DNA of 57,442 nt, the filler included, from Platydemus manokwari (lineage: Eukaryota), in NCBI GenBank assembly GCA_037951405.1. It is 5 parts of 5 records of this genome, joined end to end, with 100 filler letters (N's around TTAATTAATTAA, not from the genome) between each part and the next. Parts side by side here need not be neighbours in the genome. Positions count along the whole stretch, not along the records: positions 8,969 to 19,549 come from JBBMOY011122218.1; 4 more parts are not named here. One strand, written 5' to 3'. The notes under the pieces were generated by a model. The model ran no database searches. It worked only from the letters and a program-made list of their open reading frames with translations, and was not told the DNA's origin. Shown here piece after piece: positions 1-33,783 of this stretch. A program made the translations under genes and the position numbers. Every line of letters begins with the position of its first letter. Position 1 is the first letter of the stretch.

Positions 1-5
1 ATAAC

Positions 6-2160
6 TTGGAAAAAAATTCATTAAACGAGACATACAAAATCATCTGTGAATTTATCCAAACTATGACAGTGATTAGATCACCAGGGCATTCATTCCATGG
101 TAAAGAAACAAATTATATGAAAAGGAGGAAAACAGACATGAAACTTCGTAATCTGTTCAACATTGCCCCATCAGCTGCTTTTGGAATAATTACCAAATTT
201 ACTCATGCAAATACTTGGCCAGAAAAGGAAGACTTCGAAATACATTACAGAAACAAACAAGTCGATCCAATGAAATTACCAGAATGTATTAGACCATGTA
301 TGACGCAATGCAATGAGTTCTGTGAGTTAAAGAGATATGCAAAGAGAGGCCCTAATTTCTCATTTCGAACTATCGAAATCTAAACAATATATAAAACTTT
401 ACGTCAAAAGGATCCAACAGTTCCGGGAAGGAACAATATCGGATACAGACCCAAACTGTGAATTATTAAAAGTACTATTTGACAAATGCATGGAGCTAAA
501 TGAAATTCCTGAAGAATGGAAAACATATTCTGCCATCATGATCCCCAAACCGATGAAGCATGACGAATATGACAGAATCGGATCATGGAGACCAATCGCA
601 CTCCTCGATTGTTGTTACAAAATACTAACAACAATCCTATGCCAACAACTTCGAAGTTGGATCGATGAGAACAACCTAATTCATCCATTACAAAAGAGTC
701 GGGGGGCCAACTGATGGGTGCGCGGAGCACAACTTTTTTCTTCGAGCTCTGTTAGAAAACTATTCGAGGAAATGGAAGAGATGACATTCACATCTGATTC
801 ATGGACATTGAGGAGGCCTTTCCTTCGATAAACATCACAGCAATGACGGAGATATTGGAATATATGGGTCTGGATGAAAATGCTTTAAAAATGGTCAAAT
901 GCTTGTACAACAACTGCTGGACTAGGTTCAAGTGTGGAGATTATGAGACGTGTCCGATCGAAATGAAACGTGGGGTTCGTCAAAGTTGCCCAATATCAAT
1001 GTTGTTATTCAACATTTCAATGAACCCAATTCTTGTAAAGATAGATCAAAACCGATTGGGTGGATTATTATTGGCTAATAATAAAATCTCTTGCCTGGCA
1101 TATGCTGATGACCTTGCACTGATCGGCAGGAACGCCAATAGTGTACAATCAATAATCAACGAGGCTTCCGAACTGGCGACTACACTTGGATTCAAGTTCA
1201 AACCATCAAAATGCGGATACATACACAATGAAAGAGAAGGGTCTATGGTAGATAATTTAGAAGTGAACAATGAACCAATCCCAATAATCACTATGGAAAA
1301 CCACTATCGATATTTAGGTGTGAACTTTTCACTGAAGTTACACAATTCCACAGAAAATCTTTTCAACGATCTAAAAACTACGATGGAAATGCTCACAAAT
1401 TCAATTATACTTCCATGGCAAAATCTCAGAGCATTTGAAATGTTTATCTATACGAAATGCACTTTCTTCCTGAGAAATTATTGTATCACCTATACAAAAC
1501 TCAACGAATTCGACATTATGATGAGAATATACTTGAAGACAATACTGGGTGTATCAAAACATTGCGGTACAAATTACCTATATGCCTCCAAAGCCTATGG
1601 GGGGATATGGTCTAGGCAATATAACATAAGGTTATACAATTCAATCAATAATCCATGCCTACTATCTCCTCACGAGCAAGCATGAAGTTATCAGACTGAC
1701 AGCAGTGCACTCTCTATGTCAATCAGCAAAAACCGAAACAGAGGTGAATGACATCAACGACTCACTCAATTGGATGAACTCATACATTTCTGGGACTCGC
1801 AGAAGCAAAACTTGGTGGGGCAAATCAAATATGCAGTGAATATGCAGTTGTTCGCTTTGAGACAATAAATGGTGCCCTCATGCTCAGAATCGATCAAAAT
1901 ATCAGCTCTAATGGTCTTAGTTATACAAAAGCAGCGACAGAGGAACCAAAGAATATGAAACAAGCTCCAAAACTTCTTCGACAGTGTTTCATTTAATCGT
2001 ATCAAATCCAATGGAATGAACAAATCAGGAGCGGTCGATACAATGCATTATGTGGTACAGTTAGCCCTATGTGGATCAAGACAGTATTCCATGGCCACTT
2101 AACAATTGCAGAGTTTCTATTCATCCACAAAGCTAAAACGGATACCTTACCGTCATTGAA
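6..2160 (+). mobile_element. Degenerate RLE-type (R2/NeSL/Utopia-like) non-LTR retrotransposon: frameshifted reverse transcriptase, truncated before the endonuclease
   Basis: Successive ORFs 6-383, 337-714 and 801-1685 give SWRPIALLDCCYKIL, (G)PTDGCAEHNF, DIEEAFPSI, KRGVRQSCPISMLLFN, LAYADDLAL, GFKFKPSKC and YRYLGV. Around 2100-2155, LTIAEFLFIHKAKTDTLP matches the post-RT 'FIHRAR..LP' motif of this group. Confidence 0.9.
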
Positions 2161-2199: not shown

Positions 2200-3325
2200 A
2201 AGACATGTTTTCACAGAACAAATAATATATATTCCTAATACATACATTTTAATAAATTCTTCCCAATCATTTTGTATGGGCTTTCATATCTTTCCTGATC
2301 TTTATTCCTCATCTCTTTCTTTATTAGTACCTTACCTCCTTCTTTGAATTTGAGTCTAGTTACTATTTTTCTATAATTATTTGGTTTTTCTGCAATGTTC
2401 TTCTTAAGCTCATGTCTGTCAATTCTACTATTTGCTTGCCACTGTAATCTGTCAATCTTTTTCACGAATATGGCTTCTGCTGGACTAACCTTAATTGTTT
2501 TTTTTGCATTTTCGCTTTCAAAGTGCATCCTATCTTTGGTAATATTGAAGCCCACTTTGTATTTTGTCTTTCCTTTATTGCCGCATTTATGTAATCTCTA
2601 ATCTTTCGAAATTGTCGCTCAATGATTCAATTATTGATGTGATGATAAGAACTCGAGAATATCAACTTCGTTCCCATTTTGAAAGTCATATGCTTTTTTC
2701 TACATTTTCCACAACTTATGTGTATTTCCTTGTGTGCTCCTTATTTAAATACCCATAAACTTCTTTGATTTTCTTTCCCACATTGTTCATATCGAAATAA
2801 TTGTTCTGTGATCAGTTCTTTGTGTGAATCTTTTTCCGTACAACTAGTAATTGAAATCCTGATAGAAGTAATATATTTCAAGTAATTCATTCCTGGTGAT
2901 ACAACAATCCTTCTCATATTTCCTCATTACTTGAGATCCGTATACAATGACTAGTCATTTTGGTAGTTATATCTTTACAATAATACTACTACTATTTTGT
3001 CGAAACTTACATCGGTATCTAGGATGAATTCTTTATTATAATCCGGCAATGATAAGATTGGTGCTTCTGTCAGGGCATTTTTCATGTTTTCGAATGCCGT
3101 GCTCCATATAAGCTTTTTATTATTTTTACCACATAACTCTTCCATGGCTATTGATTTCTTCGAGTATTCCTTTATAAATCTTCCGTAATATTCGCAAATT
3201 CTAAGAAAGCTTCGCAGGTTCTTTAAACATTTTGGTCTTTCAAATTTTTCTATTGCTTCAATCTTACTTGGGTCAGCCTTAATACCTCCTTCATTTATAA
3301 TGAGCCATGAACTTAATTTCTTTCT
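2200..3325 (-). mobile_element. Gypsy LTR retrotransposon pol remnant (RT connection, RNase H, integrase C-terminus)
   Basis: Minus strand reads EGIKADPSKIEAIEKFERPKCLKNLRSFL, TAFENMKNALTEAPILSLPDYNKEFILDTD and VIVYGS. ORF 2235-2555 has SPAEAIF...FKEGGKVLIK...RYESPYK (integrase GPY/F region). Multiple stops and deletions. Confidence 0.85.
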
Positions 3326-8968: not shown

Positions 8969-9662
8969 GGTATTATTTTATCTGTATTCAATTTACCATA
9001 ATGTCCAAGACATGTTCTATCATTTAAATAACACATATTACATGAGCAAATAATACCTGCACTAATCCATGTTCACAAGGTGATTCTAATTAATTTTTTG
9101 ATCAATATAAAACACTTTTGATACCTGTAATCGATAATGCACATTTATTATAAAAATCACATCTTATTTTATGTGGATCTATTTTTTTTCATAGGTGTCG
9201 TTGGGAAGCAGGTTCCTAGAGGAAGTGCAAAATATTTTTTATTTTGAGGGTTGATTGTCAAAATCTGGTCTTCCTTAATATTGCCAGAATATTCTTTTTG
9301 TTCCAAAGTATCATTTTTCAACAATTTCAACTTATTTAAACAAATTTGCCAAATATACTTTTATATATTTCAATTCGTTTTCAATGATCGCTATAATAGT
9401 AACAGCTCATATATGCCCTCTAATATAAATAGCTGAAAATAATATGACATTTATATTTCATTTATATTTATATGCCAACCCTGTGTTTTTATATTTTCGT
9501 GAGTACCAAAATATAATTGATTGTGGATCCTATATTGTCTTTTGTTTTTAACAATGATTTATTGATTGAATCACTACCAATCCCGACACGTATTTCCCTA
9601 TGATTGCGGCTTATCAATTGCGAATCTAGGCTAGTATTGAGTATATGGTCGCAATCCATCTA

Positions 9663-10826: not shown

Positions 10827-13800
10827 TTAAATTTGATATGTTGTAGATGCCACTTGTCCACCATGTCCTGTCCAATCTGTATGTTCAAATGTACCTGGAT
10901 GATCTAATAACTGGTACTGGTGAGCTCCAAATAAATCTCGTTGAGCCTGTAATATTTCAATCACCTCTCACTGTACAATCTCAAACACTGACCTGCAATA
11001 AATTTGCTGGTAATTTTTCAGTTCTTAAACCATCGTAAAAGGCAATCGCTGATGAAAACGCTGGAGTGGGAATACCGTGCAGTACTGCAATTGAAATGAC
11101 ATTACGCCATCCGTCCTTGAAATTAATTATTTAACAACGCTCAGATAGATTTTCAATGAATAGGTCATGATTTGTGATTGATCCATTCAGCATTAATAAA
11201 TTCATTCCATCTCTCTTTTAAATTTCAAAAACAAGTTCCATTGGAACTGAAAAATTCAGATTTACTAAAGAATAAACTGATTGAAACCATTAAGCCAATA
11301 AAATGATTATTTTAGAATATGGTTTATCCAATATGACCAAAGCATATTTGAAAAATTAGAACAATGGTTTTGACTTGTTATCTCTAAATTCACTTTTGTA
11401 AATCGAGTATTAGAAAAAACTTGATAAAATTCGTTGTTAAACTATTTCGTTAATATTTCCAAACATATCTTTCGGGCACGTATTTGCAAACATTAATAAA
11501 AACATGATTTTTCATAAAATCAAACCAGAAAATTTTAACTTAAACACACACCCACACACAGAGACATAAAAACATTTCTATCACGATTTCCTGTGTGCCT
11601 ATTTCTAACAAAAGGTGTCTATCAAATAATTGCCAAAGTAGTCGGGATTTGAAATTCAGTTAAATGCAGATTATTTGAGCAGATTATTTATTGACACATG
11701 GATGGGTTTTTATTAGAGATTATTGATCCAAGTGTGTTAAATACTGGAATGCCAGTTTCGTGTGTCAAAATTCAATCCTTGAAACAAAATAACAATAATC
11801 ATAAAATTATTTACTTATTCGATAACAGTTTTTACTAATCAATTTATGATTTACCAAGTGTTTTTCACAGATATAGTTATCGATTATAATTGATATGATA
11901 CTAGAAATTCGTTATATTAAAAATGGTTTAAAATTTGACATCGTTATGAAATCCTTAATATGTCATTGCAGAAATAGATGTGCTAAAAGCTCATTTTAGA
12001 TCCATGATGAACTGAAGGAAAATGATATTGTTGAATGAATTTGTTGAGAAGTACAAAATTTAATTATGGAGAAATGAATAAAACTAAAGATAAATAGTAT
12101 GTGTATATATATTAATTTTACTGATCAAATTTCCAAACATTATATCATTTTATAAATAGATCACATATTGATTATCCCGTGATTATTGATTTTTAGAAAG
12201 ATTAAAAATATAAAATGGGTTATTTAATTACAAGATAAGAGAAAATAATTAAATTTTAGTGTTGTTAATTATCGATTCATTATAACATTGCAAAATGATT
12301 TATCGATTTATTCAATAAGATTTTTAATTAATCAAAAATTTAACCTTTAACCGCAAGATAACAATAAAAATCCTTACTTGACATTTCAAAACTTCGTCCT
12401 GAAAGAATTTATCAAATAGAAGCACAGATAGGTGATTGTGTTTTTCATAGGCTTCTCTAATATTCTGTAGAAATCGACTGATTTGATAAAGAGTTGTTAT
12501 TGGTTTTATAGGTAAAAATTTTACTACCTTCTAATTATACAACCTCCCCTCCACATCATAGCAATTTTACCAAGATTTAAGCGCCATTTAAATTCATGAG
12601 ATGCACTCTTCATCATCATAAATCCTTGAGTGTATGAAATAATCTTACTGGCATACAGAGCCTACACGTTGAAAACATAAATGAAAATATCAACAAAAAC
12701 CAAGATAATTTGATAATTAAAATGAAATCTATATCCTTTGTTGAAAATAAAATTTACCAATCGGATATCATTAAGGAATTGAATTTTATCTCCTTCAAAT
12801 TTCCGAGTATTAGTGCATGGAAATCTTTTACTCGCTTCAACACGAAGAGATTTTAAAGATGACAAACTACGAGCAAAAACGCTTTCAGCTAAAATAAATA
12901 CAATATTATAATATTGAGTGATGAAAAATGATTATTTGATGATTAATTTTTTATTCATGCTTAAGGTTATAGGAAATATTCCTTTCTGAGATAGATAATA
13001 TACATGATATCTATGTGAATTTCACAAGTATAAGTTATATGAAGAATATAAGAAAAATTATTATACCGAGTTAAATTCCATTTACTAATTCTTTATCTCT
13101 TTCATATTTCTTTCCCATATCAGTTTCATATTTCTTTCTCATATCAGTTTCATATTTATTTCCCATATCAGTTTCATATTTCTTTCCCATATCAGTTTCA
13201 TATTTATTTCCCATATCAGTTTCATATTTCTTTCCCATATCAGTTTTATATTTCTTTCCCATATCAATTTCATGTTTCTTTCTCATATCAGTTTTATATT
13301 TCTTTCTCAATATCAGTTTCATATTTCTTTCCCATTTCAATTTCATATTTCTTTCTCATATCAGTTTTATATTTCTTTCCCAAACCAGTTTCATATTTCC
13401 TTCCTTCATATCAATACTGTTTAACAAAATTCTGAAATATTGTTTCGTGTTTTTATCAAATAAATATATGAGGTAGATATACAATTTGTCGTATACACGT
13501 TTCTAGCTTGATATTATATTTTTTTGAATTAAAAATCTTAAAAAATTTATTGTGATTAACAAATATTAGATTGAAAGGTTAGTCGATAATCTATTAAAAC
13601 TCACTGAATAATAAAATTAAATCGTTCAAATATCAAAAAATTACCAATAAGAGTAACAGGAACTCCAAAATCCAGAGCCGTAATTGCCGTCCATTTACCA
13701 GTGCCTTTCTGAAATGAATTAAATAATTTCTATTATCATAAACTACCATAGATTATCTACAATTATTCACGATAAATTGCAAACTAAATCATTAAAAATC

Positions 13801-15833
13801 CCGGAGTTCTTAACTATTCTCCTAGTAATATATTTTATTAACTGATAATAAGCCGTGGAGTAGACTGCATAATTCTTAACATTTATTTTTAATAGCAGAC
13901 AGTGGATAATTAAAAGGATTGGAAAAGTATCTAGCGGTTGCAATTTTCAATTACTTCAATCAGACTTCTCCCTCATCAAGTTTGATAATGAAAATCAATT
14001 ATTTCATATTTTTAATAATATAAGCCAGTTACAAACCGAAATATTGAACATTATTTTGTGAACAATAAGTTATAATCTAATTCAATAATATTTAAATGGA
14101 AATCCCAATGATATAAAGGATTTCGAACAAACCAGCCTCTAAGCCTAAATTTTATTTCCAAAATTTCCACAATTTTCATTTCAAAAACTCGAGAATATAT
14201 TTCCGGACAATTTTTATATAATTATTTTAATAAGCATTGTGAGGATTTACAATGGATTGGCATTTGAAAATTTTCAAAATCAGATTTTTACAAAATATTG
14301 ATTTGTTTGAAAAATTGTAATTAGAATGTAATTCGATGTCGAGACGTTTCATTTGGTTTTCACTGCGTGCTTTATAAAATAGTAGCGGCTTACATGGCGA
14401 CCAGGTATTTCGATTCTATTCTGATGTCTATGGCATGGAAGCAGGGAAAAAGAGGAAGATGTAGAAAAGATGTAAAGATATAACAAAGTTGTATAAAATG
14501 TATAGAGACAAAGTGAAGATATAAAAACTTAAAACATAAAGTAGCAAAGAAATAGAAGTTTTTATATAGATAAATATCTAGAGAATTTGAGAAAGAGATA
14601 ATTAAAGAATTCCGAGAAAATCAAAGATTTTTAAAGAAAGGGGGTCGTGAGGATTTGTAATGAATTGGTATTTGAAAATATTTGAGATCAGATTTGTATA
14701 AAATATTGATTTATTCGAATAATTGTAATTAAAATATAAGTTGGTGTTGTGACGTTTCAATTGGTTTTCACTGCGTGCTGATCTGCGTTTTCACTGACAT
14801 GGCGATCAAGCATTTGGATTTCCTTTTTTAAAGTGTCTATGGCATGGAATTATGGAAAAAGAGGAAGATGTAGAAAAGATATAACAAAGTTGTATAGAAT
14901 ATATAGAGATAAAGTGTAGATATAAAAAGATATAAAGAAGATACAGAGAAGATATACGGATGATAAAGAGAAAACATAAAGTAGCGAAGAAATAGAAGTT
15001 TTTATATGGATAAATATCTAGAGAATTGTGAGATAGGGATAATTAAGGAATTCAGAGAAAAACAAAGACTTAAAAGAAAAGTCGTCGTGAGGATTTATAT
15101 TGAATTGAAATTTGAAAATAATCAATATCAGATTTTAATAAAATATAATTTTGTGTGAATAAATGTAATTAAAATATAATTTGGTGTCCTGACGTTTCAA
15201 TTGGTTTTCACTGCGTGCTTTATAAAATATTAGCGGCTTACAATCATTAAGGATAAAATGAATAAACTCCAAATGATTAATGAAATAAATCTCATCAATG
15301 TAAAGGTACGATCGTGATGATCAAACCCAATTGCTGGATGAAAGAAAACAAGAAAATCGGCCATTTATTTTCAAGTATTTTAGTCGTGTTAATTATCGAT
15401 TCATTATGACAAGTCATTCCAGCTTATCATGAATAGCAAAATGAAAATTAATTAAAATAAATCAAAAACCCAGAAATAGTGAGATCTAATTACAAAATAT
15501 TAAATTTCCAATTACTTGACCAGCTGAATCGTAGATATTTTCCAATAAATAACTTCCATCATCGGCTTTAAATTTTGTCACCGAGCTTGTAATTTCTATT
15601 AAAAATGATTCCAACTCGCCTTTGTTCCATTCGTCGAAAGCCTGATTCGATATCAATGTTATTCCACGAATCATTTTAAATAAATCAATATATATTACTG
15701 CTGAAATCTCTTCATTACCCATCTCCAACAGATCTCTCATTAGATGATATGCTTCACAAATCAATTGCATATCTCCATATTCAATTCCATTGTGTACCAT
15801 CTTTACAAAGTGGCCAGCACCATCAGGTCCAAC
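10827..15833 (-). CDS. PGD: 6-phosphogluconate dehydrogenase, decarboxylating; 5'-partial. Exons 15833-15699, 15641-15516, 13708-13645, 12888-12758, 12661-12528, 12477-12378, 11115-10993, 10946-10827
   Basis: Spliced translation: [29 protein letters not shown]...[10 protein letters not shown]...[36 protein letters not shown]...[14 protein letters not shown]...[12 protein letters not shown]...[15 protein letters not shown]...[18 protein letters not shown]...[18 protein letters not shown]. All junctions are GT-AG with consistent phase. Confidence 0.97.
13100..13400. repeat. 24-bp minisatellite (about 12 units, consensus tttcatatttctttcccatatcag) in a PGD intron
   Basis: Direct tandem repetition; it produces the spurious ORF 13071-13346 (KKYETDMG repeats). 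Confidence 0.93.
14238..15242 (+). mobile_element. Tandem TRIM array: LTR 14238-14394, internal, LTR 14646-14799, internal, LTR 15086-15242
   Basis: Three repeats of about 157 bp (TGTGAGGATTT...GCGGCTTACA). LTR1 and LTR2 are followed directly by TGGCGACCAGG and TGGCGATCAAG (PBS-like). Internal regions end in purine tracts (aaagaaagggggt, aaaagaaaagt). Outer flanks AGCAT/ATCAT are a near-perfect 5-bp TSD. No coding capacity. Confidence 0.85.
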
Positions 15834-17287: not shown

Positions 17288-17775
17288 CGAGAGAATTTCA
17301 AATTTAATTAAGTTTTTTAAAGATTTAATTTGATATAAAATTTGACTTTATATAAAATTATATTAATTTGTTTATATAATTATATTAAAATATATAATTT
17401 GATGTCGTCTTTTCAGTTCGTTTACGATGCGTGTTTTATAAAATAGTAACGGTTTTCATAGCGACCACACATCTGGATTCGATTTTCAGAAGATCAATAA
17501 CTGTAAGTTATGGAAAAAGAGGAAGATGTTGAGATTATATAGAGAATATCTAAAGAATATATAAAGAAGATTTTGAGAAGATATAAAAAGATCAAAGAAT
17601 TAGATATATTTATGTAGATAAATATGTGAGCATTCGATACAATGCCTATTAGGAATACAAAGAAAATTAAAGATTTTAAAGAAAAAGGGATGTGAGCATG
17701 TAAAATTGAATTAAATTTTTATAGATTTCATTTTGTATACATTATAGAATATAAATTAATGATAATATTTACAAC
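17288..17775 (+). mobile_element. Diverged copy of the same TRIM family
   Basis: LTR end ...gcgtgttttataaaatagtaacggttttca (17458), PBS-like TAGCGACCAC, internal ggaaaaagaggaagatgt shared with the array, PPT aaagaaaaaggga, then second LTR start TGTGAGCATG (17691), truncated. Confidence 0.75.
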
Positions 17776-24859: not shown

Positions 24860-26840
24860 TATAAATGAATCTATGCCCATAGTACAATGAGTCGGTAGGA
24901 GCATTTGATATGAGATTAGATAAATTAGGAGCACGAGCTTTTGAGTCAAGGAATAACCTGAGACAGATGATTGAAGCCCAGTATATGATTGGATTAAATG
25001 GATATATTGGAAGCGCATTGATAACAGAAGATATTGCTAATTTTGAGCAAGCTATGCAAAAGGCAAAAAATAGAAGTTGTAAATGGAGGTCGAAGTTATG
25101 AACTCAACAAGATAGATAAATTGAGTAAAGATAAACAAAAGAAAATTAATACTGTCACATGGACAGATGAAGTGACCCCAAAAGGTAAAGCAATGGATAT
25201 TACTGTCAAGGATCAGGGTGATCCTGATATTGGAACAATGGAATGAAGAAAAATGAAAAAGATGTTCGAACAATTTCGAAAGGAAGAGGAAAAAGATGAA
25301 GCACAAATGAATCAAATTGATAATAAAGGAATAATAGTTGAAGTAACAATTGAAATAATAACAATTGAAATATAGCAGGGAAATTAGTCCTGGAAACCAA
25401 TATAATGGAGGAAATAATATTAACCAAAATAATAATAACCAATAGAGGAAATCGCCCTGGAAATCGTCACAATGAAAATAATTCGAATAGGGATTTTAAT
25501 GGAAATTATCAAAATCAATGGAATAATTTAAATAAAAATAGTAGAAGACAATGAAGTAATGAGGATTGAGATTCATGGAATAATGATAGGAATAGTTTTA
25601 ATATAAAACGAGAAGCCACAACAGGAGGAGTACTGAATCAAGGATTCAATAAGAGAAATACAGGAAATATCCCAGGATTTTCAAGGGATAAAATGAACAA
25701 AGATGGAAATATACAATGCTATAACTGACAAGAATATGGACATTGAGCAAGAACATGTTCACGACGAATAAATACCTAGATAATAGATATCACTTCCATG
25801 AGATCAGATGGATTGGGAACAATTTAGAACAACAATATCTAGTGTTAGCCGCTCATACTATTTAGAAACTACAAACTAAAATCAAAACAAAAAAGTCAAG
25901 ACACAATCAATTCTATTTTAAATCCAAATATTTAAACAAATATTTTCAATTTTACCTTAATTTAATTTTTTATAAAATTAAATTAAAACATGATTAAAAT
26001 TTGAATAAAATGAAAATGAAAATTGTTTTGAATCAAATTGAAATTCATCAAATATCTCACATCTAGTCTAAAAATTGTAGCGGTAAATGGTAAAACAGGA
26101 GAAAAAAAAGAAATACAAAAGCATTGAAAAAATGGGCTCATAGTGAATGGCTGTTTGAGGAACTAAAGGAAAATGAACAGTTACAAAGGGATACAAAGGG
26201 ATAGAACTAACTCACGATCGAAATCTATTAGACTTTTTATCACAACACCACATAAATGGGATGCAATTGTGGAGGAGAACATTTAAAGAATATCCGATAA
26301 CAGGTACAAAAGTTGGCCGAAACAATGGTCGAAGCAGATTGATTATAGCCAAGTAGTACATGGATGGGACAAGAACGCGTGGATACAGACAATACAAGAG
26401 CAAGAACCATTCAGATGTGATGAATGGACAATCATAAAAGAAAGAGATCTACCACACATAGAGGAATTATGGGGGGATACAGCAAAAGGAAAAGATAGTG
26501 TGATATCTAAAGTAACACAAGGAGAAATAGTGCGAAAACATGAATATTAACCAGATAGAAGGAGCCAAAAACCCAGAAATTGAACACGATGACCTTAATA
26601 CCCCACTCCATATTGAAGAAGATGAACTAAACTGTATGAATGAAGTGTTAAAGACACCCACTAGTGCAGAGATAGAGGAAGTAAGAGAATTCGTAGAAGA
26701 AAGCCAAATCATAAACATTAAAGAAGCAATGCAACGAATATTGAAAACCATGGATAGATTGACTGGATTACAGGAACACGAAATAAAGAGAGCATGTCTG
26801 CATTTCTATGATAAGCTTTGTGATAAGTTTTTAATGTAAA
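24860..26840 (+). mobile_element. Degenerate Gypsy-type gag-protease region
   Basis: Asn/Arg-rich gag tail followed by a decayed CCHC knuckle QCYN*QEYGH*ARTC (about 25715-25760), protease-like LKIVAVNG (about 26068-26091), and several short ORF remnants (24910-25246, 26540-26839). Confidence 0.65.
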
Positions 26841-26859
26841 TCTCTTCCGTATAAATAGT

Positions 26860-28002
26860 GATTGAAATGCTGACAGAAGTAATATATCGCTAGTAATTCC
26901 TTCCTTGGGATACAATACCCTTTCTCATGTTTGCTCATTGCATTGAGATCCGTATGCAATGACTCGTCCATTCCCTTGATTATCTCTTTGCGACAATACT
27001 GCTTCTATAGTGTCGAAACTTGCTTCGGTATTGCGAGGAAAATTTAAATCAAATAATAATAATTTTAAATAATAATTTTAATGAATTTTTTTTAATTACA
27101 ATTTAGAATAGTTTAATAAATTTTAAAATCAAAAATAGTATTTTAAAATTTTATTAAATTATTTAATATAAAGTAATTATTAAATAATTTATATATCTTT
27201 ATCTATATCTGGCTAAGATTGATAATTAAATCTCTTTATAAAAGAAATTTTTATTTGTTTAAAAATTGTATTATTTGCTGGTATTAAATAAATATTAATA
27301 AAATCGTAATAATGACTTCTTTTGTTGAAACATCAATTTCAAGCGAAGCAAATCTTACTGATAGGTATCTAGGATAAACTCTTTATTAAAATCTGGGAAT
27401 GACAAGATCAGAGCTTCTATCAGAGCTTTTTTCATATCTTCGAATGCCGTGCTGCTTCATTCCAAATGAGTTTTTCATTATTTTTACTGCACAATTCTTC
27501 CAGTGCTCTTGATTTTTTCGAGTATTCCTTTATAAATCTCATGTAATATCCACAAATTCCAAGAAAGCTTCGTAGGCTCTTTATATATTTTGAGCTTTCA
27601 AATTTTTCTATTGCTTCAATCTTACTTGGGTCTGTCTAAATACCTTCTTCATTTATGATATAACCCAGGAACTTAATTTCATTTCTCAATTTTTACATTT
27701 TTCTGGATTAATGCGCAGTCCTGCATTTCCTATTCTTTTTATTACTTCTCCCACCTTTTCAAAGTGTTCTTCTATCGCTCTTGAGAACATTAATATGTCG
27801 TCCAAATATACCATGGCTCCTTTTTCTCTCATCTCATAATATTTTTGTCATCAATTTTTGAAATTTTCCTGATGTTGCTGCGATCCCAAAGGCATCGGTG
27901 TAAAACATTATTGCCTATCTTTCATCAAGAATACTGTTTTTTCTTGTGTTTCATTGTCAATTTCTACCTGATAATTTGCATTTCCCAAGTCTACCGATGT
28001 GT
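26860..28002 (-). mobile_element. Gypsy RT-RNase H remnant, same family as 2200-3325, interrupted by a 332-bp insertion
   Basis: Minus strand gives TSVDLGNANYQVEI...QEKTVF, MPLGS, MVYLDDILMFS, GLRINPEK, DPSKIEAIEKF, AFEDMKKALIEALILSFPDFNKEFILDT and SFDTIEAVLSQ...VIAYGS. Clear nucleotide similarity to 2880-3320. Confidence 0.88.
27032..27363 (+). mobile_element. Solo-LTR-like insertion with 5-bp target-site duplication GGTAT
   Basis: GGTAT at 27027-27031 and 27364-27368; the uninterrupted paralog at about 3010-3025 has one copy. Starts with TG. Its 3' 110 bp recur at 3371-3485. Confidence 0.7.
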
Positions 28003-28199
28003 AGGGTACCTAATAGTATTATAAATATGCATTTGATTATAATATGTTCCAGATGAGCTTGAATTCTGTATGAGTTATCTTTCAGAAGTGTTGTTATATA
28101 TATCTGTATTATTATCCTTTATATAATTATTATTTTTACATATAAAATTATTCAGTAAATTCTTGATTTAAAATAAAAATTACAAAAGTTTAACAGTAA

Positions 28200-29228
28200 C
28201 TGTGAACAGTAACCAAAATTTGAATTACGCGGACTTGCACAGAGACGCAAGAGTGTGTGGTAATTCAAAAGATATCAATTTATAAAGCTTAAAATACATT
28301 GATAATAAATTGAAAAGGAATTACATGGTCAATTTGAATTGGATTGTAAGAAGGTCTATAACAAGGACATATAGGAGAAGAAGACATAGAGAAGTTGTAG
28401 AAAATATATAGAAAAGATGAAGAGATTTAGAGAAGATATAAAGAAAATATTGAGAAGATATGAAGAAGATTTTAAAAAGAGAGAAGAAAAAGAAATTTTC
28501 ATTTTGATAAATGTTTGGAGAATTCAATGAAGAGATAATTATGAATACAAGAAAATCAAGTGCTTTAAAAAAATTCGATTTAAAAATTAAAAATTTTAAT
28601 TAAAATTTAAAAATTATAAAGAGGATTTAAAAATTTAAATTGTATAAATTAATAACAAAAAATATTTTAGTTAGTTTCCAATGCTTTGTTTATGAAATAG
28701 AAGCGACTTATTGTAAGGATTTGAAAATGAATTAAAATTTAAAACATAAATTATTTATTTGATTGGTTTAAATAATCACATAAAATACACTTAACGTGTG
28801 GTAACTTGTCAATTCGATTTCAATTCCTGTTTTAAAAAGCCGCAGCGACTTCCATGGTGACCATGTATGGAATTCGATTCTGAGAAGATAAATGACAGAA
28901 AAGTATGGAAGAGAAGCAAGAAGTTATGGAGAAGATTTATAGAAGATTTTTAAAAAAAATGTAAAGAAGACTGGATAAATAGGATTTTTATATAGGTAAA
29001 TATTTAGAGAATTCAATACAGAGATAGATTAAAATAGATAGAAAATCTAATAGCTTAAAGACAGATGAGTGTGAGAATTTTGAAATTTTTAATTAGAATT
29101 TACGTTACAAAAACTAATTGCCTTTTTGAGTTGTTTCAATAATTTGGTAAAATATACTTAAATGCATTATTATTATTATCTTTTAATTCGTTATAAAAGG
29201 GAACTCAATGACATTATAGCGCCTTACA
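28200..29228 (+). mobile_element. Cluster of diverged TRIM copies (clearest: LTR 28712-28854, PBS 28855, LTR 29070-29228)
   Basis: TGTAAGGATTTG...gcagcgacttcca|TGGTGACCATG, purine-rich internal region, TGTGAGAATTTT...tagcgccttaca. A second, more decayed unit has ...ttaca|TGGTC at 28325. Confidence 0.7.
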
Positions 29229-33442: not shown

Positions 33443-33783
33443 TGAAATTTTTATCCTTTTGATATCCTTTATCTTCTAAATAACTTTTACCTTCTCTATA
33501 TCTTCCACATGTCTTTTCGAAATCCTTTACCTCTCCATATCTACTTTCTGATCTATATCTTCCATACTTTTCTACGCAGATATTCTCAGAAAAAAATTAA
33601 AATCCATGGTCACCATGTTAATGGTTACTATTTCTAAAAATACGAATTTTGAACAATTTAATAGCTTCAACACTCAAAAGTATATCTAACAAAAATATTG
33701 AAACAAATTATCTAAAGGTATTTTTTATTATTGATTTTATTTAAAGTGATAAAATCATTTATAAAAGCTCTAAAAATCCTCAA
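33200..33783 (-). mobile_element. Diverged TRIM copy in reverse orientation
   Basis: Minus strand: TGAGGATTTTT (33782)...atagtaaccattaaca|TGGTGACCATGG (33615-33604), purine-rich internal region containing gaaaagtatggaaga, second LTR start TGTGAAG at 33343. Confidence 0.65.

What the first reader, a model, noticed from the sequence alone, without database searches (positions are those of the whole stretch)
14238..15242. Non-coding miniature LTR retroelement (TRIM) in an LTR-sharing tandem array inside a PGD intron
Seen: three repeats of about 157 bp with TG...CA ends, alternating with two purine-rich spacers of about 250-290 bp. Each spacer begins TGGCGA(C/T)CA and ends in a purine tract, and the array is flanked by AGCAT/ATCAT. 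Established: LTR-PBS-internal-PPT-LTR with no ORFs defines TRIMs, and LTR-sharing tandem arrays are known for plant Cassandra-type TRIMs; animal TRIMs are much less described (the taeniid ta-TRIM is one example). Inference: this is a non-autonomous family, probably primed by a tRNA-Arg and mobilised by a Gypsy partner, and it may be undescribed.
Basis: partly seen in the sequence, partly recalled or inferred. Interest (0 to 1): 0.72.

Follow-up and report, generated by a model that had tools for sequence, protein, structure and literature searches.

The report
Old mini-retrotransposon with traceable Gypsy parent
This is a decayed double copy of a small, gene-less jumping element that is very common in this genome and sits in an intron; its two ends still match a full-size retrotransposon of the same genome, from which it likely arose by losing its middle, so it is a new example of a known kind.

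Summary
Confirmed. Three LTRs (157/154/157 bp) alternate with two internal regions (251/286 bp) inside a 1,807-bp 6PGD intron, flanked by AGCAT/ATCAT. The family is abundant: 372 exact LTR-end/PBS 14-mers against 3 for the control pattern. It makes 5-bp TSDs (26 of 48 elements within one mismatch; null mean 2.4). The PBS matches the host tRNA-Arg(ACG) 3' end over 12 nt. Copies are old (median LTR-LTR identity 79%), and LTR-sharing arrays recur (6 of 63 multi-LTR chains).

New here: the internal region is not featureless. Its first ~100 nt are homologous to the gag start of a Ty3/Gypsy family in the same genome, and its last ~45 nt match that family's integrase end and PPT. The two families share the first 7-10 nt of the LTR and a 5-bp TSD. 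The TRIM is therefore most likely an internal-deletion derivative of that lineage, mobilised by it in trans. In that lineage the LTR end and PBS together spell a conserved gag Met, and the next codons can pair with the tRNA T-arm.

TRIMs, tandem TRIM arrays and deletion derivatives are all known. Repbase and Dfam could not be checked. The scan's earlier TRIM notes (fungi, diatoms) concern other elements.

The parts
14233..14237 (+). left target-site duplication (AGCAT)
   Evidence: family makes 5-bp TSDs
14238..14394 (+). LTR1, 157 bp, TG...CA
14395..14403 (+). PBS 1, 9 nt exactly complementary to tRNA-Arg(ACG) in this copy (12 nt in most family copies); with the last LTR base it forms the ATG homologous to the parent's gag Met
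14395..14645 (+). internal region 1, 251 bp: ~100 nt gag-start relic, purine-rich middle, ~45 nt integrase-end relic
14633..14644 (+). polypurine tract 1
14646..14799 (+). shared middle LTR2, 154 bp, starts CG, last ~20 nt altered (private change)
14800..15085 (+). internal region 2, 286 bp, PBS with one mismatch, 39-nt purine-rich insertion relative to internal 1
15072..15081 (+). polypurine tract 2, decayed
15086..15242 (+). LTR3, 157 bp, starts CG, ends CA
15243..15247 (+). right target-site duplication (ATCAT), 4 of 5 with the left
13709..15515 (-). host intron (1,807 bp, phase 0) of the 6-phosphogluconate dehydrogenase gene that contains the array

Best explanation
This is an old, decayed two-unit tandem array of a high-copy non-coding LTR retroelement (TRIM) that likely arose by internal deletion from a compact Ty3/Gypsy retrotransposon of the same genome and was likely copied by that lineage's proteins. 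SHOWN: the LTR-PBS-internal-PPT-LTR anatomy; hundreds of exact junction matches; 5-bp TSDs; complementarity of the PBS to host tRNA-Arg(ACG); homology of the internal 5' ~100 nt to the gag start, and of the 3' ~45 nt to the integrase end and PPT, of one Gypsy family with the same LTR start and TSD length. INFERRED: LTR-to-LTR transcription; packaging into the partner's Gag particles; tRNA-Arg-primed reverse transcription (12-bp PBS, probably extended by pairing with the tRNA T-arm); PPT-primed plus strand; integration by the partner's integrase. The deletion kept the two ends because in the parent the cis signals overlap coding sequence: the PBS lies in the first gag codons and the PPT in the last integrase codons. 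The array is one insertion (one outer TSD). It most likely formed by unequal recombination between LTRs soon after insertion; insertion of a read-through dimer is not excluded. The copy is inactive, lies antisense in the 6PGD intron and is presumably spliced out.
For: TSD: 7 of 48 perfect and 26 of 48 within one mismatch at 5 bp (null 0.41 and 2.36, maximum 9 in 10,000 permutations), no excess at 4 or 6 bp. tRNA: Rfam tRNA match with anticodon ACG at L032 and a CCA-ending 3' tRNA fragment at L031. 5' homology with the PBS removed: 10 of 10 copies of one gag subfamily score 6.0-19.7 bits against the TRIM profile; 280 shuffles reach at most 4.3; 4 copies of the sister subfamily and 6 other gag starts score at most 0.5. 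Copy L083 reads MATTHLDSILRRL and partner copy L254 reads MATTHMDAILSRL. 3' homology: last 40 nt versus partner copies L286/L292 score median 11 and 9, above the 99th percentile (8 and 7) of mid-internal windows; those partner ends translate as an integrase C-terminus (80-87 bits). Partner LTRs L272 and L276 start with the same 10 nt as LTR1; partner solo LTRs show 4 of 15 perfect 5-bp TSDs and none at 4 or 6 bp. The lineage has RT-RNaseH-integrase order and Ty3 as best PDB match. Post-insertion duplication is clear in L124 and L086, whose internals are 94% and 91% alike against outer LTRs at 78% and 69%.
Against: The body of the TRIM LTR (157 bp) does not align with the partner LTR (~300 bp) apart from the termini. 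The 3' homology is short: upstream of the PPT the median score (4 and 3) is above the shuffled median (-2, -3) but below the shuffled 99th percentile (6, 5). No single contig joins that subfamily's gag to its integrase end: they are linked by the shared LTR and by L269 (gag plus pol fragments). The partner TSD test is small (6 of 15 within one mismatch; null maximum 7). In the window array, derived changes are star-like (8, 22 and 8 private; 2, 3 and 1 shared by pairs), so they do not decide how it formed. 45 of 93 multi-LTR chains were dropped before the TSD count (41 with ends not aligned). Mobilisation in trans was not tested.
Confidence: 0.82

Rival explanations
1. It is a TRIM of independent origin, or mobilised by another tRNA-Arg Gypsy family; the likeness to the partner is convergence on PBS, PPT and att signals in AT-rich DNA.
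For: LTR bodies do not align. Several families in this genome share the same PBS and a similar PPT, including a gag-only family with a 163-bp LTR and pol-bearing L252 and L267.
Against: Homology extends ~90 nt beyond the PBS and is specific to one gag subfamily. The 3' end fits the same subfamily (L286/L292, median 11 and 9) better than L252/L267 (3 and 2.5). The gag-only LTR is not convincingly similar (z 1.2-2.9).
Confidence: 0.1
2. The array was inserted as a unit from a read-through or template-switched dimer RNA, not duplicated in place. This is a rival for the array step only.
For: Outer LTRs are the most alike pair (84%) and the internals are about as diverged (81%), so the array is about as old as the insertion. 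Both routes are considered possible in PMC11899658 (Discussion read).
Against: LTR2 and LTR3 share a CG start absent from LTR1 and from all 65 comparison LTRs, which fits a change copied after insertion. Outside its altered end, LTR2 is as close to LTR1 and LTR3 (84-85% over 133 nt). L124 and L086 show in-place duplication.
Confidence: 0.35
3. The TRIM is Pol III-transcribed (Helenus/Cassandra-like), using the TTCGA motif just after the PBS as a B box.
For: The sense strand about 18 nt after the LTR reads like a B box at 8 of 9 positions (counts; consensus recalled). The partner has G where the TRIM has T in this motif.
Against: No tRNA or 5S match in Rfam for 14100-15400. The best A-box-like stretch fits 5 of 8 fixed positions (by eye). 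The motif lies outside the LTR and is explained as gag codons and as the complement of the tRNA T-loop.
Confidence: 0.05
4. It is a local tandem duplication or assembly artefact and not a mobile element.
For: AT-rich, fragmented short-read assembly.
Against: Dispersed copies with TSDs; units are 16-25% diverged; X1 contigs cover most of the array.
Confidence: 0.01

Closest known systems
Plant TRIMs and tandemly arrayed TA-TRIMs (Gao et al. 2016, PMC4717578, passages; sugar beet non-autonomous LTR elements, PMC13570524, passages)
   Same: Under 1 kb, two short LTRs, PBS, PPT, no ORF, 5-bp TSD, L3I2 arrays that keep an outer TSD; some sugar beet families keep coding remnants or resemble an autonomous partner (54 of 115 traceable).
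ta-TRIM of taeniid cestodes with candidate partner lennie (Koziol et al. 2015, PMC4558846, passages)
   Same: Animal TRIM, TG..CA LTRs, a few tandem copies, partner proposed from shared LTR start, PBS and TSD length.
   Different: ta-TRIM has a ~198-bp LTR, ~590-bp internal, tRNA-Leu PBS 4 nt from the LTR and 4-bp TSD in E. multilocularis, with no protein similarity in the internal. Here: 157-bp LTR, ~250-bp internal, tRNA-Arg PBS abutting the LTR, 5-bp TSD, and sequence homology to the partner's gag and integrase ends.
PbTRIM of Pogonomyrmex ants (PMC3532108, passages)
   Same: Same size class (480-781 bp, LTR 152-184 bp), abundant, often in or near genes.
   Different: tRNA-Leu PBS, 4-bp TSD, young copies, no autonomous relative found.
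biv-TRIM of bivalves (PMC6934838, first fifth of text read)
   Same: Animal TRIM with solo LTRs and tandem repeats.
   Different: 202-218-bp repeats, 77-80-bp internal, no clear PBS.
Cassandra, Helenus, Ajax (TRIMp3; Kojima 2024, PMC10886601, abstract and introduction read)
   Same: TRIM anatomy; Cassandra forms LTR-sharing arrays.
   Different: No 5S- or tRNA-derived segment in the LTR here.

Membership tests
TRIM | Unit under 1 kb with two direct terminal repeats of 100-250 bp | tested here: met
   LTR ~157 bp; internals mostly 160-300 bp; unit ~565 bp
TRIM | LTRs with TG...CA termini | tested here: met
   42 of 48 start TG and 36 of 48 end CA; in this copy LTR2 and LTR3 start CG
TRIM | PBS complementary to a host tRNA 3' end | tested here: met
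   12 nt to tRNA-Arg(ACG), L032; only isoacceptors fitting the pattern were sought
TRIM | PPT directly before the 3' LTR | tested here: met
TRIM | No coding capacity | tested here: met
   No + strand stop-to-stop frame over 57 aa in the array, longest on - strand 78 aa; gag-relic frame closes within 10-29 codons in the copies printed
TRIM | Dispersed copies with TSDs | tested here: met
   26 of 48 within one mismatch at 5 bp versus null 2.4
TA-TRIM (LTR-sharing tandem array) | Three or more LTRs alternating with homologous internals under one outer TSD | tested here: met
   window array; L004 (4 LTRs, perfect TSD); 6 of 63 motif-picked and 2 of 29 BLAST-picked chains
TRIMp3 (Cassandra/Helenus/Ajax) | 5S- or tRNA-derived Pol III promoter inside the LTR | tested here: not met
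   No relevant Rfam match up to E 10
Ty3/Gypsy-derived element | Homology to, and shared att/PBS/PPT/TSD with, an element of RT-RH-IN order | tested here: met
   LTR bodies do not align
Ty3/Gypsy-derived element | Mobilisation in trans by that partner | not testable with these tools
   inferred from shared signals only
Named Gypsy clade of the partner (Mag, Osvaldo, 412/mdg1 etc.) | RT phylogeny with reference elements | not testable with these tools
   homologues returned carry no clade names
An already catalogued Repbase/Dfam family | Sequence match to a catalogue entry | not testable with these tools
   no such library available

The most novel reading that the evidence does not exclude
The TRIM is the minimal descendant of an undescribed, widespread lineage of compact Ty3/Gypsy elements in which signals and genes overlap at both ends. 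The gag start codon is built from the LTR's last base plus the PBS (35 of 43 full-length Gag homologues have M-A/V-T/S near the N-terminus, 26 after Asn). The next ~10 codons pair with the T-arm of tRNA-Arg as a ~30-nt extended primer site. Integrase runs through the PPT into the 3' LTR. The ~100 + ~45 nt that the TRIM keeps would then mark out the whole priming and packaging signal, and annealing of the primer would block Gag translation as a switch.
Probability: 0.3. Interest if true: 0.6.

Novelty: new member of a known kind. Interest (0 to 1): 0.4.

Why it matters
Few non-plant TRIMs are described, and their parents are mostly unknown: none was found for PbTRIM, and lennie is linked to ta-TRIM by short motifs only. 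This family shows direct sequence descent from a Gypsy subfamily at both internal ends, next to a gag-only family of the same lineage, so the reduction series from autonomous to gag-only to TRIM can be studied in one genome. The element itself is an old, inactive intronic insertion, and nothing points to an effect on 6PGD.

Tried and rejected
Rfam on the array: only two chance-level hits. ARAGORN found no whole tRNA in L031/L032 (both partial); Rfam identified L032. A 28-nt exact junction pattern gave only 2 matches, in line with the age of the family. A phage search with a PGD exon was uninformative. The 20 long-ORF integrase contigs held no partner: other PBS contexts and no Gag match beyond the zinc knuckle. 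The gag-only family (L082, L125-L164, L215-L241) was my first partner candidate; rejected because it has no pol in the loci read, its LTR similarity is marginal and it has no PBS-free 5' homology. My first count of 17 three- or four-LTR chains included neighbouring independent insertions and was replaced by the stricter count. I first read the T-arm pairing as TRIM-specific; the partner has it too (median -13.4 versus -15.0 kcal/mol), so it is inherited. Gag searches: no hit among longer proteins, no informative Atlas hit for a fragment, one unrelated metagenome locus. No RNA holder listed. Host taxon not determined. Paper searches showed no paper on this family or on a gag ATG at the LTR/PBS junction; the library lacks most subscription papers, and I read no supplements, where TRIM lists could include it.

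Full report
Observation. The sequence shows three repeats and two spacers at the stated place: LTR1 14238-14394, internal 14395-14645, LTR2 14646-14799, internal 14800-15085, LTR3 15086-15242, flanked by AGCAT and ATCAT. The host gene is 6PGD on the minus strand (Pfam PF00393 on 4 of 4 exon frames given). The intron runs 15515 to 13709 with GT..AG ends. This copy is decayed: LTR2 and LTR3 begin CG, LTR2 has an altered end, and the second PBS and PPT are damaged.

Family. A search of the own genome with the array gave 5,127 first-look candidates, of which 40 were scored, all matching. The 14-mer spanning the LTR end and PBS occurs 372 times against 3 for the reversed control. I read 90 of these 372 loci (30 returned, 60 fetched from the first 100 listed) plus 2. 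By eye, 87 of the 90 continue in TRIM-type sequence; L082 is a gag-only element, L096 is the partner's gag start and L063 is unrelated. With about 80% conservation per site, 372 intact 14-mers imply several thousand copies; this is a rough estimate.

TSD, age and arrays. Of 137 chains, 93 had two or more LTRs; 45 were dropped (41 ends not aligned, 3 at an edge, 1 followed by a PBS). Of the 48 kept, which include the window copy, 7 have a perfect and 26 a one-mismatch-or-better 5-bp TSD, against null means of 0.41 and 2.36; there is no excess at 4 or 6 bp. LTR-LTR identity in 63 two-LTR elements has median 79%, range 57-97%, so most copies are old and a few are younger. True LTR-sharing arrays make up 6 of 63 motif-picked and 2 of 29 BLAST-picked chains.

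Primer. L032 holds a partial tRNA gene with anticodon ACG (Rfam 36.8 bits), and L031 holds its 3' part ending in CCA. The family PBS abuts the LTR and is complementary for 12 nt; positions 10-12, which the search did not fix, agree in 74-82% of 89 copies. The next 24 nt also pair with the tRNA T-arm: median -15.0 kcal/mol in 84 copies against -6.2 for shuffles and -4.2 for other windows. This is a folding prediction, not a measured interaction.

Parent. L082 led to a gag-only family (163-bp LTR, ~970-bp internal, same 9-nt PBS core, two CCHC knuckles). Its Gag found 71 homologues. Of the 43 full-length ones, 35 have M-A/V-T/S near the start, 26 of them after Asn, as expected if the LTR end plus PBS spell the ATG; the DNA was seen only for this genome's copies, and many homologues also have an upstream in-frame Met. 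Searching back with one homologue and reading 20 contigs showed further subfamilies, several with pol; pol has RT-RNaseH-integrase order and Ty3 as best PDB match. One subfamily matches the TRIM at both ends. At the 5' end, the TRIM profile without the PBS scores 6.0-19.7 bits on 10 of 10 copies, against at most 4.3 on 280 shuffles and at most 0.5 on 10 other gag starts; copy L083 reads MATTHLDSILRRL and L254 reads MATTHMDAILSRL. At the 3' end, 2 of 30 loci of that subfamily's LTR have a PPT preceded by an integrase C-terminus, and the TRIM's last 40 nt score above the 99th percentile of control windows against them, though the part upstream of the PPT alone does not. The partner LTR (~300 bp) starts like the TRIM LTR over 7-10 nt and has a similar end; 4 of 15 solo LTRs have perfect 5-bp TSDs. 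The LTR bodies do not align, so the immediate parent is probably an older relative. The partner also shows the T-arm pairing (median -13.4, 14 copies).

Mechanism. Shown: anatomy, copy abundance, TSD, tRNA complementarity and two-ended homology. Inferred from established Ty3/Gypsy biology: transcription from the 5' LTR, packaging and reverse transcription by partner proteins, tRNA-Arg and PPT priming, and integration with a 5-bp staggered cut. The array is one insertion. Duplication in place by unequal recombination is favoured (about 65:35): LTR2 and LTR3 share a CG start found in none of 65 comparison LTRs, and L124 and L086 show this route clearly. The window array is otherwise star-like and about as old as its insertion.

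Comparison and verdict. It meets every TRIM feature tested and fails the TRIMp3 test. Tandem TRIMs are common in plants (PMC4717578 and PMC13570524, passages; PMC11899658, abstract and Discussion) and were noted for ta-TRIM (PMC4558846, passages) and biv-TRIM (PMC6934838, first part). It differs from ta-TRIM and PbTRIM (PMC3532108, passages) in primer, TSD length and in having sequence homology to a parent. Eight paper searches showed no description of this family; Repbase and Dfam were not available, and the host taxon was not determined. Verdict: a new member of a known kind, interest 0.4, mainly for the traceable origin and the overlap of signals with coding sequence in the parent lineage.

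Noticed in passing
window 17289-17741 (+): A second, more decayed TRIM copy of a different subfamily about 2 kb from the array (LTR, internal, partial LTR).
   Followed up: partly
window 28332-29228 (+): Another LTR-sharing TRIM array remnant (internal-LTR-internal-LTR) in a different stretch; further fragments at 25843-25982 (-), 33461-33615 (-), 37277-37396 (+), 9327-9409 (+).
   Followed up: partly
window 2256-3301 (-) and 26814-28003 (-): Broken pol fragments of the partner Gypsy lineage (40-91% to P0101 by tblastn); a more distant RT fragment at 41787-42425 (+).
   Followed up: partly
L130 (G000:C168899:9744-11036) and L125-L164, L215-L241: Gag-only LTR family, ~1.3 kb, 163-bp LTR, same tRNA-Arg PBS core, Gag ATG at the LTR/PBS junction, at least 150 matches; L153/L221 forms an LTR-sharing array; several copies adjoin AAT microsatellites. 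Resembles plant TR-GAG elements.
   Followed up: partly
P0001-P0071, P0096-P0215: A lineage of unnamed compact Gypsy elements on 4.3-5.4 kb contigs in ENA/JGI/Logan data: ~360-aa Gag starting N-M-A-T, and pol ending in a motif that overlaps the PPT (GG/GD in the last 16 residues in 37 of 61).
   Followed up: partly
L031:750-787: 3' part of tRNA-Arg(ACG) with encoded CCA and no 5' half: looks like a retro-copied tRNA fragment.
   Followed up: no
window 13094-13406: About 13 copies of a 24-bp tandem repeat in the next 6PGD intron.
   Followed up: no
window 3-1682 (+) and 43780-44346 (+): Frames that look like non-LTR retrotransposon reverse transcriptase (by eye).
   Followed up: no
L195-L214: Many long open gag/pol frames (940-1,670 aa) of other Gypsy-like and Copia-like families in this genome.
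   Followed up: no
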